A stretch of 5,616 bases of DNA, taken from positions 1 to 5,616 of the forward strand of contig NW_021829861.1 in assembly GCF_006345805.1 (NCBI RefSeq), in the 5' to 3' direction. A model generated the notes under the pieces. That model made no database searches, was not told where the DNA came from, and saw only the letters and a program-made list of their open reading frames with translations. The first letter of the stretch is position 1. Each line of letters begins with the position of its first letter. Of the stretch, positions 778 to 5,013 are shown piece after piece. Both the position numbers and the translations under genes were made by a program. The DNA comes from Octopus sinensis. Its lineage: Eukaryota.

Positions 778-1757
778 ATATCGTATTAAAGAGACAGCCC
801 ACATATTTATTGCTCTGATCTTGTCCTTTCCGTTAAGTCCAATCTTCATAACAGATATTTGCATCAACATCCTTAACTCACTCGTTGTCGGGTAGTTCTA
901 CACCACCAGATAACATTTCTTTTCCTTTTTTATTCATAAGTATACCACACTTTTTAATTATCAATCCCACCCCGAAATCCTTACTCAATATACGCACTGT
1001 TGAAACCGAACCATTTATTTCACACTCAATATTACCGATGATCTTTACGACATCTATATGCGACAGGGGATTCAACCTTTCTTCACTTTTGTAGTGTGTA
1101 AACTGATGCCAATTTCCGTAATATATGCATGATGAAAATCATGCAAATCACAAGCAGCAAAGGTGACAAATTATCTCCCTGAAATATGTCCCCCACAGGA
1201 TGTTTCTTTTATTTATATTCCAGATCTTCATTGATCTCCTGATAAAATTAAAGGTGTTATCAGATACCTGTAACAACTAAAGACTTTCTAAAATACAAAA
1301 ATGGGAGAACTTTCTATAAGCTTTCTTATAATTGACCCCTAGTATACCCGAGTTAGTACGTATTTTCTTACAATCATTCAGCACCATTCCGTCAATCAGA
1401 TGTTGATCTTTTGTCCTCCGGCTTTTGGCCCTTGTATCCCTTCTATGCCACTGGTCATTCCTTTTTAGGAAGTAGTTATATATCGCATTACCTTTGCCAT
1501 AACCCTTTTGGCAAAGAATCGTTTTCCCTTTTGTCATCCACTTCGGGATTTCCACACCATTGTTGACCCTTTCATCCATTTGGCCAGCTAGTACTCTTGT
1601 ACTCCATATGGACGTTGAATTTCCAGTTTGGAACCTTTGTTGTCTGTTCGGTTACCATTTCAGCTGTTATCCTTATATCATTTCGTTTAACTCCCTTTTT
1701 CTCCCATCTTAATTCCTCCAAACATTTACCATCTTTCTTATCCTGCATGTTATTCAT
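778..1757 (-). pseudogene. Reverse transcriptase domain remnant of LINE copy 1 (non-functional)
   Basis: ORFs 1572..1757, 1277..1579 and 878..1075 are frame-shifted pieces of one RT. FQGD lies at 1173-1184. The catalytic segment expected as LNHLLFMDDLK reads LNPLSHIDVVK, so one Asp is lost. The YRPI..L segment expected after GNAIYNY is deleted. Confidence 0.88.
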
Positions 1758-2333
1758 TTATCCTAGATGTTATTCTATCAGATTTCTCACCGCTGTTAAC
1801 ATTTCCGTTCAGTTGCTGATAAATCCTTTTATGATCTTATAAGAACAACCAATTGATCTTAAATTGTTCAATTCTTTGATTATATCTCTTAATTCATGTA
1901 ACTTCAGCCTGCAGTATTTATTTCAGCTCTTCAAAGTCTACATTTAATCCCCTTTTTACTTGATCATATATTTACCTTCTAGTTCCAGACATTTCTCTTT
2001 CTTCCTCATTTCACCTTGTTTCTTCTCAGGATGTTGATATTATTTCATAGATCGTTCATTGATTCCTTTAACCATTCTTTCCCGCCAAGGCCTTTACGCA
2101 TCATGGAATGCTTCGTAGTTTCGTTCAAGACTTATTTTTCTTCCTCAGTAAATGACACAAGCTTTAGTCAGTCTATTGGTTCCAGGCATACGCTCCGTCT
2201 TAATTTCTTTCAGTATTTTTATTCACATTCCGTGCCCACCCACTGGGCAACATTCTATCCACTTTCTTAAATCCATTTACCTTAACATCCAGATTTTTCT
2301 CAATGATACCAGTAATATCTTCGATCATTCTTC

Positions 2334-2895
2334 TGTTTTGCGTAGGATGTGTGCAGTGTCTAGCAGTGCTATTTTCTGTATTTTATATATACTTGTTAGT
2401 TCTGGTGATTTTGTTATGTATTTCTCTGAATATTTTTTTATCATAACGGCGGTGCATCAGCTGAAACCAGAGAAAAAAAATACCTAATTACGACAGAAAT
2501 TGTTTCTATTTTTAGATTCCACATTTCCAGGTGTTTGTATTTTGAAAGTTTCTCCATTTCATTTAGAGAAACGTTGCCATCTTTAGGTATTGATACATAA
2601 ATTAGAAACCATAATTTTTTTCATGATCTCTGACAACTATATCTGGACTATTGGCCTTAATTTCTCTGTGTGTATTGGTATATGCCATAGTATGGTTGCT
2701 TTCTCATTTTCTGTGACCTTTTCTGGCTTGTACCTATACCATCTTTTTTTCTGTTGTTATTCCATAGTGTTGGCACAGCTTCCAGTGTATGTAGCTCCCA
2801 GCTCTGTCGTGTCTGTGAATATATTCCTTCTTAGCTAGAACTGGGCAGCCAGAGACAATATGAGTTATTGTTTCGTGTCAATATCCATCTCCACC
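2334..2895 (-). mobile_element. Second RT+REL-class LINE fragment (copy 2): end of CCHC zinc knuckle plus restriction-like endonuclease domain to the ORF C-terminus
   Basis: Minus-strand translation, joined across small frameshifts: ETITHIVSGCPVLAKKEYIHRHDRAGSYIHWKLCQHYGITTEK..WYRYKPEKVTENEKATILWHIPIH..REIKANSPDIVVRDHEK..VSIPKDGNVSLNEMEKLSKYKHLE..MWNLKIETISVV..LGMIKKYSEKYITKSPELTSIYKIQKIALLDTAHILRKT. RHD is at 2806-2814 and NSPD (expected NRPD) at 2641-2652. Confidence 0.92.
2446..2479 (+). mobile_element. 34 bp A-tailed insertion (probable SINE 3' remnant) in LINE copy 2
   Basis: ACGGCGGTGCATCAGCTGAAACCAGAGAAAAAAA is flanked by ATA (2443-2445 and 2480-2482). Removing it plus one ATA restores TTA GGT ATG ATA AAA AAA (LGMIKK) on the minus strand. 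Confidence 0.6.
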
Positions 2896-3002: not shown

Positions 3003-3543
3003 GAGTGAGAGAGCAGTTCATGCCATCAAAGTGACACTGGGGTAAAATATACGAAGCCCAATATACCCATCATGACTACCCGTCTGATAAAGGTACCCAG
3101 GCACATGCATCACAACCATATGTGCGCGACATGGTGATCTCATATCAAGATAAACAGCACATGACCTTGCAGGTGGGGCCCAGTTAGAATTTTCTTCAGG
3201 TTGAGTAGCCCATCCTGCTCAAACGGTCCCTGAATAAGGGTTGCTTTAGGATGTTGAACGAAACACCTATGTTTCCAGAGGTGAACCATTCAAACTCCAA
3301 AGAATCCCTCTCAACACATGGCCATGATGCTCCCCCACTACTTCTGCTCGTGATCAGAGATACACATATCGTCAGCCACTAATGGACATGCTCAACTGGT
3401 TAAGGTCAAACAACTGACAAGCAAATCTGTGGTATTGAGCAGAATATTTGCTGTAGCCCATCTTTTATACCAAGACAAAACAATGTACATGATAACACTT
3501 CCAATCAGTTAAGATCAGAAGCCATGAGAGCCAATGCCTGGTA
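3003..3543 (-). mobile_element. ~540 bp non-coding interspersed repeat (non-autonomous retroposon or LINE UTR derivative) embedded between (AAT)n tracts
   Basis: Sharp boundaries at ATT tracts on both sides, higher GC than the flanks, and no ORF in the track. It resembles a repeat recalled from octopus genomes. Orientation is inferred from the (AAT)n tail and a hairpin that pairs fully (G-U) only on the minus strand. Confidence 0.65.
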
Positions 3544-3556
3544 ATCATTATTATTA

Positions 3557-3619
<63 letters not shown>

Positions 3620-3624
3620 GATTA

Positions 3625-3683
<59 letters not shown>
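3544..3683. repeat. (ATT)n microsatellite, ~140 bp
   Basis: Directly visible; source of the poly-Ile ORF 3534..3737. Confidence 0.98.
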
Positions 3684-4070: not shown

Positions 4071-4115
<45 letters not shown>

Positions 4116-4134
4116 TATAGATATATATTATATA
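3999..4134. repeat. Imperfect (CT)n tract (3999-4070) followed by (TA)n tract (4071-4134)
   Basis: Directly visible. Confidence 0.95.
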
Positions 4135-4140
4135 ATTTTT

Positions 4141-4387
4141 TGAATTGAAGAAATGAGTTGAACGAAGATTGGCCATGGGCTCTTAGGAGCCTCTTCGATT
4201 TGTTTTGCTCCGCCTCTGTTCTGTTTTTGTTTTTTCCAACGGATTTCCTATTTCTTCCTGAAGAGAAAGACACAATATGGTCTCCTTATTCAATCGGAAT
4301 TTGGTAAATTGTGCCTTTCGAAACACGTGTAGAATGCAATAAAACGATTTCTGTTCAATCTTCGTTCAACTCCATTTCTTCAATTCA
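4141..4387. repeat. Inverted repeat, arms 4141-4171 and 4356-4387
   Basis: TGAATTGAAGAAATG-AGTTGAACGAAGATTG versus reverse complement TGAATTGAAGAAATGGAGTTGAACGAAGATTG: identical except for a 1 nt indel. Confidence 0.95.
4255..4334 (+). ncRNA. Minimal type I hammerhead ribozyme (Penelope-like element type)
   Basis: Stem I UUC(4255-57)/GAA(4332-34); core CUGAAGA 4258-4264; stem II GAAAGACACAAU(4265-76)/AUUGUGCCUUUC(4308-19) with 11 of 12 pairs; GAAA 4320-4323; stem III A-U plus C-G closing the palindromic loop ACGU; cleavage triplet GUA 4329-4331. Confidence 0.8.
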
Positions 4388-4543
4388 CTAATAATATTAA
4401 AATTCAATTATCCGCACCAACGCACGGTTGCAACACCATATGGTTGTACCTCCAACCGTGCTGTCTTCTGCTGTGATTTTTGCTACCAGGTACCGGTTAA
4501 CTTTTTGATTACTGCAACAAGATTATTCATCTTTCTATTTCAC

Positions 4544-4544
<1 letters not shown>

Positions 4545-4606
<62 letters not shown>

Positions 4607-4634: not shown

Positions 4635-4730
4635 ACGGGAAGGTATACGAAAATAGACAAAAGACGATGGCAGGTGGAGTACAAACAAACAATGTATTAG
4701 TATGGCACTCAGGAATAGAAATAAAAGAAG

Positions 4731-4768
4731 TCTTTTACGTTTCGAGTCTACGCTCTTCGATAGAAAGA
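4731..4768 (-). ncRNA. Hammerhead-like motif with non-canonical core
   Basis: Minus strand reads UCUUU CUAUCGAA GAG CGUAGA CUC GAAA CG UA AAAGA: a 5 bp stem I, 3 bp stem II, GAAA, ACGU palindrome and GUA triplet, but CUAUCGAA replaces CUGANGA. Confidence 0.45.
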
Positions 4769-4819
4769 TACACAGAAAAGAAACAAGGAGAGAAAAAAAT
4801 TGCGTGTAGGGACTAAAAA

Positions 4820-4930
4820 AAACGTACACGCAGGACAGACACAGAAGGACCTTCGTTCTTCATCAGTTATCAACCGAATGATAATGCTCCGTTTCTATGG
4901 TCCCTCTGTGTCTGTCCTACGTCTACGTTT
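4820..4930. repeat. Inverted repeat, arms 4820-4851 and 4899-4930 (29/32 match, 47 nt spacer)
   Basis: AAACGTACACGCAGGACAGACACAGAAGGACC versus reverse complement AAACGTAGACGTAGGACAGACACAGAGGGACC. Confidence 0.95.
4860..4895 (-). ncRNA. Permuted (type II-like) hammerhead-like motif, probably mutated
   Basis: Minus strand reads GAAA CGGAGCA UUAUCA uucggu UGAUAA CUGAUGA: perfect core halves and a 6 bp closed stem I, but the triplet is GCA rather than NUH and the first stem II pair is not canonical. Confidence 0.45.
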
Positions 4931-5013
4931 CTTTAACTATCGTTTATTTAATGCATTTTTCATTTATTGAGTAACTGAATGCCACGCATTCCGACTTTTG
5001 TTCCAAGTTAGTT

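What the first reader, a model, noticed from the sequence alone, without database searches (positions are those of the whole stretch)
4255..4343. Canonical-core minimal hammerhead ribozyme hidden between (TA)n tracts
Seen: all conserved core nucleotides (CUGAAGA, GAAA, GUA) are in the correct geometry, with a long stem II (12 bp, one A-C mismatch, 31 nt loop), a short stem III whose CACGUG is palindromic, and AATAAA 7 nt after the predicted cleavage site (after A4331). Known: minimal type I hammerheads with palindromic loop III occur in pseudo-LTRs of Penelope-like elements and in retrozymes, and often cleave as dimers. Inference: this is a self-cleaving RNA motif of a non-autonomous mobile element, invisible to the ORF track. 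The long stem II and large loop are atypical for minimal versions.
Basis: partly seen in the sequence, partly recalled or inferred. Interest (0 to 1): 0.8.

Follow-up and report, generated by a model that had tools for sequence, protein, structure and literature searches.

The report
Long-armed hammerhead of Hydra-type Penelope retrotransposon
This conserved hammerhead-shaped RNA motif is the end piece of a young, thousands-of-copies Penelope-like jumping gene that lands in TA repeats; it likely self-cleaves only weakly or as a dimer, and the family is unusual for its long hammerhead arm and for lacking the cysteine linker proposed to aim such elements at TA repeats.

Summary
The motif is there as described, and it is not chance: 4,070 genomic matches against 1 control match, a core unchanged across subfamilies whose synonymous sites have diverged by dS about 0.77, and 4 of 12 stem II pairs with two-sided changes. 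It is not a non-autonomous element or retrozyme. Window 4141-4545 is the 5'-truncated, 5'-inverted 3' stub (pseudo-LTR) of a protein-coding Penelope-like element (PLE). [quoted passage not shown] The protein has the Hydra-clade motifs (DKT, YRDD, CxxC/CxH, no CCHH) and differs from published Hydra-1_Obim. Hammerheads in PLEs are well known. What differs here: (1) stem II is 12 bp plus a bulge and a second hairpin (3-7 bp in the published Hydra table), and Rfam misses it; (2) stem I is 6 bp + loop + 7-8 bp in three subfamilies but about 3 bp in the window's; (3) the CxCx5C linker is absent (0 of 19 copies; 92 of 93 homologs have it), yet insertions remain TA-targeted. Copy ends never fall at the cut site, so templates were uncut or re-ligated. 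Cleavage itself is untested.

The parts
4074..4134 (.). (TA)n tract on the 5' side; likely the target microsatellite
   Evidence: nearly all family copies examined end in (TA)n
4141..4171 (-). Inverted, 5'-truncated copy of the element's own 3' tail (reverse complement of 4356-4387, one base shorter), joined to the body at a short microhomology
   Evidence: inverted 5' partners occur in many copies
4166..4545 (+). Body of the insertion: pseudo-LTR (end of the 3' UTR, hammerhead, start of the 5' UTR) of a Hydra-clade PLE; no ORF in this copy
   Evidence: 95-98% identity to the other 39 scored copies; the same stretch follows the ORF and precedes the ATG in full copies
4240..4257 (+). Stem I 5' strand: proximal 4255-4257 (+U4253), degenerate distal part 4240-4249
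4258..4264 (+). Core CUGANGA (C3-A9)
   Evidence: only N7 varies among 13 subfamily representatives
4265..4319 (+). Extended stem II: 12 bp (4265-4276/4308-4319), conserved AUGG bulge from 4277, distal hairpin 4284-4304
   Evidence: 4 of 12 pairs change on both sides, 93.6% of cells paired; distal hairpin 86.5% paired with no two-sided change
4320..4331 (+). GAAA core, 2-bp helix III with self-complementary ACACGUGU (4323-4330), UA triplet end; cleavage predicted after A4331
   Evidence: the homodimer MFE forms an 8-bp intermolecular helix III
4332..4353 (+). Stem I 3' strand, including AAUAAA (4338-4343), which is the internal-loop strand of stem I in subfamilies E-H
4388..4401 (+). First of two preferred 3' ends of family copies (+57 to +70 from the cut); not used by this copy
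   Evidence: 42 of 94 ends
4422..4461 (+). Predicted 5' UTR hairpin (4422-4430/4453-4461)
   Evidence: predicted in L070 and L073; not tested for covariation
4489..4545 (+). 5' arm of a 12-bp hairpin whose 3' arm ends just before the ATG in full copies; this copy ends at about +214, inside that hairpin's AC-rich loop
4545..4634 (.). (TA)n tract on the 3' side

Best explanation
Window 4141-4545 is a truncated, partly inverted end piece of a protein-coding Hydra-type Penelope-like retrotransposon inserted in a TA repeat, and the motif is the family's conserved hammerhead, which likely cleaves only slowly, as a dimer or with the element's protein. Shown: full copies carry one ~900-aa ORF (telomerase-like RT, C-terminal GIY-YIG) flanked by this pseudo-LTR, often as partial tandems and with an inverted 5' piece. 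Inferred: a read-through transcript of a tandem copy is bound by the ORF protein; the GIY-YIG domain nicks (TA)n; reverse transcription starts internally at +57-70 or about +214 nt past the hammerhead, which gives the two observed 3' ends; early termination or strand switching gives stubs like this one. Inferred: the 2-bp helix III cannot form alone, so two hammerheads would pair through the 8-nt palindrome to cut after GUA and trim precursor RNA to unit length. The RNAs that were actually integrated were uncut at that site, or cut and re-ligated.
For: Dispersed repeat, 2,177 candidates, 40 scored at 95-100% identity; 4,070 pattern matches vs 1 control. RT search: 150 scored matches, several in open frames of 850-920 aa; ORFs and partial tandems. 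The top five PDB fold matches of the AlphaFold model (mean pLDDT 80) are telomerase RTs. dN/dS 0.07 in the RT and dS 0.77 between L066 and L073, while 0 of 13 core positions differ between the window and L073. Covariation in stem II, with slid controls far lower. Helix III octamer is ACACGUGU, ACAUGUGU or ACAUAUGU by subfamily, all self-complementary. 3' ends: 90 of 94 at two sites, followed by TA; 62 of 66 in diverged subfamilies. 3,243 copies continue with G after the cut, and all 19 that do not still continue into the tail. 0 of 81 5' starts lie within 3 nt of the cut and 51 lie upstream of it. This matches the anole PLE in vitro: internal RT initiation, protein-assisted hammerhead, cleavage not needed for insertion (PMC11167929, parts 1-2 read).
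Against: No cleavage data. The RNA runs offered were contigs only, so no RNA ends could be seen. In the window's subfamily stem I is about 3 bp, the monomer does not fold into the hammerhead, and even the homodimer MFE lacks stem I, so this subfamily may be catalytically dead. Rfam finds no hammerhead. Pfam and a PDB sequence search did not name the protein, so the GIY-YIG call rests on motifs and homolog alignment. Covariation counts rest on 13 related sequences; the count of two-sided pairs was reached by 64 of 500 shuffles.
Confidence: 0.8

Rival explanations
1. The hammerhead cleaves efficiently in vivo and the unit-length RNA is ligated into a circle that is reverse-transcribed through the junction (the circular-template model of Cervera and de la Pena).
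For: It predicts that no copy ends fall at the cut site, as seen, and more-than-unit copies, as seen: 5' UTR junctions 3.63 kb apart in three places and a 2.6-kb partial tandem in L071. Model as stated in PMC4209133 (parts 1-2 read).
Against: Linear read-through of tandem donors explains the same ends. The anole PLE used unprocessed RNA in vitro. Stem I is weakest in the youngest, most abundant subfamilies.
Confidence: 0.25
2. In the window's subfamily the hammerhead is a vestige: the sequence is kept as a protein-binding, promoter or UTR structure, and catalysis survives only in the subfamilies with a long stem I.
For: 3-bp stem I and several mismatches in the distal stem in subfamilies A and B; pair probabilities about 0. 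The sequences flanking the core are also conserved (9 of 32 columns vary downstream), so constraint is not limited to the core.
Against: Core, G10.1-C11.1 and a perfect 8-nt palindrome are intact in A and B. A 2-bp helix I is described for D. virilis Penelope. The anole motif needed protein to cleave.
Confidence: 0.3
3. A stand-alone non-autonomous element (retrozyme or SINE-like) built around the hammerhead.
For: This copy has no ORF. Most copies are short: 4,070 hammerhead matches against 82 exact matches to a 30-nt marker just upstream of the ORF start.
Against: 5' boundaries are scattered and run continuously into the 3' UTR and ORF. No head-to-tail short-monomer array was seen in the loci inspected or in the window.
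Confidence: 0.05

Closest known systems
Hydra clade of C-terminal EN+ Penelope-like elements, including Hydra-1_Obim (Craig et al. 2021, PMC8557442; section 11, passages and supplement tables seen)
   Same: Single ORF with RT then GIY-YIG; RW, DKT and GLYRDD motifs; CxxC and CxH around the catalytic E and N; no CCHH; hammerhead in the 3' region; (TA)n insertion; inverted 5' copies and tails.
   Different: Unit about 3.6 kb and about 900 aa (Hydra generally under 3 kb; Hydra-1_Obim 2,507 bp). CxCx5C linker absent, with a 145-159 aa S/N-rich stretch instead. RWK reads RWL. Stem II is 12 bp plus a second hairpin, against 3-7 bp with loops of at most 10 nt in the supplement's Hydra rows. Two DNA motifs of this hammerhead are absent from that supplement.
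PLE minimal hammerheads (Cervera and de la Pena 2014, PMC4209133; parts 1-2 of 4 read)
   Same: Type I topology, palindromic helix III/loop 3, G10.1-C11.1 in the window's subfamilies, larger than usual helix II, location in the pseudo-LTR, many single and opposite-strand copies.
   Different: Helix II there is 6-8 bp. Here helix III has 2 bp and a 4-nt loop, there is no extra base between 9 and 10.1, and subfamilies E-H have a canonical-like stem I with an internal loop.
Poseidon element of Anolis (PAc; Frangieh et al. 2024, PMC11167929; parts 1-2 of 4 read)
   Same: Two discrete 3' ends downstream of the hammerhead, one in an AC-rich loop of a stem; no ends at the cleavage site; AT-rich targets.
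   Different: Different clade. The PAc hammerhead overlaps the start codon and the tail is 30-40 bp; here the cut lies about 265 nt before the ATG and the two ends are about 150 nt apart.
Animal non-LTR retrozymes (Cervera and de la Pena 2020, PMC7229834, passages; Li et al. 2026 preprint, part 1 of 5)
   Same: Type I hammerhead with short palindromic helix III.
   Different: Retrozymes are short head-to-tail tandem monomers without an ORF; this family is dispersed, variably truncated and protein-coding.

Membership tests
Type I hammerhead ribozyme | Core CUGANGA...GAAA...UH in a three-way junction open at stem I | tested here: met
   invariant except N7 in 13 representatives; 103 of 114 distinct copies found by a core-independent anchor keep both core halves
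Type I hammerhead ribozyme | Helices I-III supported by covariation | tested here: inconclusive
   Stem II met (4 of 12 two-sided); helix III invariant; stem I 6 bp in E-H but about 3 bp in the window's subfamily
Type I hammerhead ribozyme | Match to an Rfam hammerhead model | tested here: not met
   the long stem II insertion is a likely reason (inference)
Type I hammerhead ribozyme | Self-cleavage after the NUH triplet | not testable with these tools
   only contigs were available
EN+ Penelope-like element | Single ORF with telomerase-like RT and C-terminal GIY-YIG | tested here: met
   (RT by fold; endonuclease by Y..G, R, H, E, N motifs aligned with homologs)
EN+ Penelope-like element | Pseudo-LTRs, partial tandems, inverted 5' copies, tail | tested here: met
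Hydra clade | RWK and DKT motifs | tested here: met
   IRWL and SDKT; the K of RWK is L here
Hydra clade | CCHH absent; CxxC and CxH flanking the conserved E and N | tested here: met
   CNLC..E..N..CPH
Hydra clade | CxCx5C motif in the RT-EN linker | tested here: not met
   0 of 19 long copies with a readable linker have CxC; 92 of 93 homologs with the EN motif have it
Hydra clade | (TA)n insertion preference | tested here: met
Hydra clade | Placement inside the clade in an RT phylogeny with named references | not tested
   The tree holds only unnamed homologs; published Hydra proteins were compared by eye in the supplement. Because the linker test failed, this is filed as Hydra-type, a likely derived lineage, not a typical member.
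Non-LTR retrozyme | Short head-to-tail tandem monomers, no coding parent of the same sequence | tested here: not met

The most novel reading that the evidence does not exclude
A young, high-copy Hydra-type PLE lineage has lost the cysteine linker thought to direct (TA)n targeting yet targets (TA)n almost without exception, so the linker is not the targeting device. It also carries a new hammerhead architecture in which an invariant AUGG bulge and hairpin 12 bp out on stem II act as a docking or protein-binding module that has let stem I shrink to 3 bp, making cleavage dependent on the element's own protein.
Probability: 0.25. Interest if true: 0.6.

Novelty: new variant of a known kind. Interest (0 to 1): 0.38.

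Why it matters
The role of PLE hammerheads and the basis of PLE microsatellite targeting are both open questions in the papers read (PMC8557442, PMC11167929). This family offers a natural series: subfamilies with long and short stem I, three states of the dimerisation palindrome, near-intact ORFs, and no cysteine linker despite strict TA targeting. That makes both questions testable. It also shows a hammerhead form present in over 4,000 copies that Rfam misses. It is not a new class of ribozyme or element.

Tried and rejected
Rfam scans found no hammerhead family. Pfam named nothing in the ORF pieces or whole ORFs, and a PDB sequence search gave only E>=0.07. A single-sequence fold of the endonuclease was unusable (pLDDT 40). 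One search was a mis-specified search and means nothing. RNA: no holder on record as RNA was listed; four runs guessed to be RNA cover the pseudo-LTR and ORF start as contigs but cannot show ends, strand or level, and showed no splice joint at the AG/GT-like site near 4489, which is no evidence either way. RNAalifold recovered only the distal half of stem II and paired the core elsewhere. The idea that 5' ends pile up at the cut was suggested by the first 28 copies and rejected with 81: the truncation rate is only mildly higher from -150 to +100. The 3'-end tally used an anchor spanning the cut, so it could not see ends at the cut, and 29 of its loci were chosen with a long-tail query; some searches were run to fix the first bias. 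AAUAAA as the signal that sets copy ends was rejected: ends lie 57-70 or about 214 nt past the cut and join (TA)n, not poly(A). Palindrome covariation is weaker than it looks: the CA state would also pair in a shifted register (-5.2 vs -6.0 kcal/mol), and CG-to-TG is a common mutation. Lunse et al. 2017 was not held, so its hammerhead variants were not compared. Earlier scan notes held nothing for this sequence or genome; the general notes were not used.

Full report
Observation. The window shows the motif at the stated place: CUGAAGA 4258-4264, a 12-bp stem II with one A-C mismatch, GAAA 4320-4323, the self-complementary ACACGUGU 4323-4330 and a GUA triplet ending at 4331, between (TA)n tracts. 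Alone it does not fold better than shuffles (z 0.25), and Rfam finds no hammerhead, so the case rests on relatives. A descriptor shaped on the motif matched 1 of 2,000 resampled windows.

It is a dispersed repeat. The 411 bases between the TA tracts gave 2,177 candidates in the 2.72-Gb genome, with 40 scored at 95-100% identity. A core-and-spacing pattern gave 4,070 matches against 1 for the reversed control. Copies share their 3' part, start at scattered 5' points and often carry an inverted piece of themselves upstream. In the window that piece is 4141-4171, the reverse complement of 4356-4387. The host is probably an octopod cephalopod; this is inferred from the repeat landscape and the one homolog labelled with a cephalopod name, Argonauta hians, and was not tested.

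The parent is a protein-coding Penelope-like element. Longer copies run upstream into an ORF. An RT search scored 150 of 10,563 candidates, several in frames of 850-920 aa. In 20 long copies fetched, the ORF is about 900 aa, the hammerhead lies about 600 nt after the stop, and in 7 (L066, L068-L071, L073, L078) part or all of the same pseudo-LTR also precedes the ATG. An alignment-based model (mean pLDDT 80) has telomerase RTs as its top five PDB matches. Between L066 and L073, dN/dS is 0.07 in the RT with dS 0.77, and about 0.65 in two low-complexity inserts. Pfam and PDB sequence searches gave no name.

Clade. Craig et al. 2021 (PMC8557442; section 11, passages and supplement look-ups) define Hydra by RWK, DKT, no CCHH, a CxCx5C linker, C-terminal CxxC/CxH and (TA)n insertion. 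This protein has RWL, DKT, YRDD, CNLC and CPH and no CCHH, and by eye follows the listed Hydra proteins motif by motif. It is a different family from Hydra-1_Obim, whose length, protein and hammerhead differ. One defining feature fails: none of 19 long copies with a readable linker has CxC there, while 92 of 93 homologs with the endonuclease motif do (93 of the 120 listed). TA targeting remains: 90 of 94 ends in the young subfamilies (3 others run into the ORF, 1 hits a locus edge) and 62 of 66 in the diverged ones. That paper ties the linker to TA targeting as a hypothesis; it also notes that Chlamys elements lack the linker and still favour microsatellites, so the exception is notable rather than startling.

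The RNA motif is under selection. Across 13 hand-picked subfamily representatives only N7 of the core varies. 0 of 13 core positions differ between the window and L073, against 36 of 145 in the whole region. Of 114 distinct copies found with an anchor outside the core, 103 keep both halves. Stem II is 93.6% paired with 4 of 12 pairs changed on both sides; slid controls fall to 37-53% paired. However, 64 of 500 shuffles reach the count of two-sided pairs, and the sequences are related. The '31-nt loop' is predicted as an AUGG-containing bulge plus a second hairpin, conserved in sequence but without two-sided changes and weak in subfamily B. In the published Hydra table stem II is 3-7 bp, although two non-Hydra plant PLE-X rows there have long loops 2, so long arms are not unheard of. 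Stem I is 6 bp + internal loop + 7-8 bp in subfamilies E-H, but about 3 bp plus G-U in the window's lineage. The tree splits these two groups at a long-branch root, so loss versus gain is not settled. The helix III octamer stays self-complementary in three states, and the window's homodimer MFE forms the 8-bp intermolecular helix but not stem I.

What the copy ends say. 3' ends fall at +57-70 or about +214 from the cut and join (TA)n; the window uses the second. That site lies in the AC-rich loop of a 12-bp hairpin that closes just before the ATG. 3,243 copies read G after the cut, and the 19 that do not still continue into the tail. Of 82 copies that reach the ORF start (81 after removing one duplicate), none begins within 3 nt of the cut, 51 begin upstream of it and 42 contain the whole upstream core. 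So integrated cDNAs came from RNA that was uncut there, or cut and re-ligated. This parallels the anole Poseidon element, where RT starts internally at two sites, the hammerhead cleaves only with protein, and core mutants still insert (PMC11167929). Low activity of PLE hammerheads even as dimers is reported in PMC4209133.

Mechanism. Shown: element anatomy, copy number, selection on ORF and motif, end positions, TA targeting. Inferred: nicking of (TA)n, internal priming at two sites, slow dimer- or protein-assisted cleavage after A4331 that trims precursor RNA. Rivals: a circular template (0.25), a vestigial motif in this subfamily (0.3; not exclusive of the element-level account), a stand-alone retrozyme (0.05). 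Public runs were contigs only and decide nothing on cleavage or expression.

Novelty. Hammerheads in PLE pseudo-LTRs, Hydra elements in octopus and TA targeting are all in print. Six paper searches (listings and abstract starts, plus the papers named above and passages of PMC6765202, PMC7229834 and PMC13282606) showed no description of this family, its long stem II or a linker-less Hydra element. Repbase/Dfam, Lunse et al. 2017 (not held) and the supplements of PMC4209133 and PMC13282606 were not seen and may contain it. Verdict: a real feature and a new variant of a known kind, interest 0.38.

Noticed in passing
window 4731-4768, minus strand (within repeat 4637-4816): A second, unrelated minimal hammerhead-like motif: 5-bp stem I, core variant CUGUCGAA (U at position 6), 4-bp stem II, CG loop III. 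The repeat has 3,868 candidates; 10 of 11 other copies fetched have the intact form and one has a stem II change, while the window copy has changes at G5 and in stem II. Parent element not sought.
   Followed up: partly
window 4816-4934: 36-bp inverted repeat (89% complementary) abutting the second motif; gives sub-threshold mir-641 Rfam hits. Possibly an inverted 5' piece of that element.
   Followed up: no
window about 880-2650, minus strand: Broken reading frames that resemble an R4/Dong-type non-LTR reverse transcriptase (resemblance recalled). Pfam gave nothing; a genome search gave 5,672 candidates but only the window itself at E<=1e-20.
   Followed up: partly
window 3003-3545: About 540 bases of non-simple sequence between two (ATT)n tracts; looks like another microsatellite-flanked repeat. 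Not searched.
   Followed up: no
L070 about 3545-3650; window 4489-4500: Conserved 12-bp hairpin closing 3-4 nt before the ATG; its 5' arm begins at an AG/GT splice-donor-like site. No spliced joint was seen in contigs.
   Followed up: partly
G000 C1:193556812/193560441, C11:51282867/51286506, C17:28155997/28159632: Pairs of 5' UTR-ORF junctions 3.63 kb apart on one strand, implying insertions of more than two hammerhead-bearing units.
   Followed up: no
window 4141-4545 against L004: The window copy has several small deletions outside the hammerhead relative to a sister copy; decay or assembly error. The contig is only the window's 5,616 bases in the search header.
   Followed up: no
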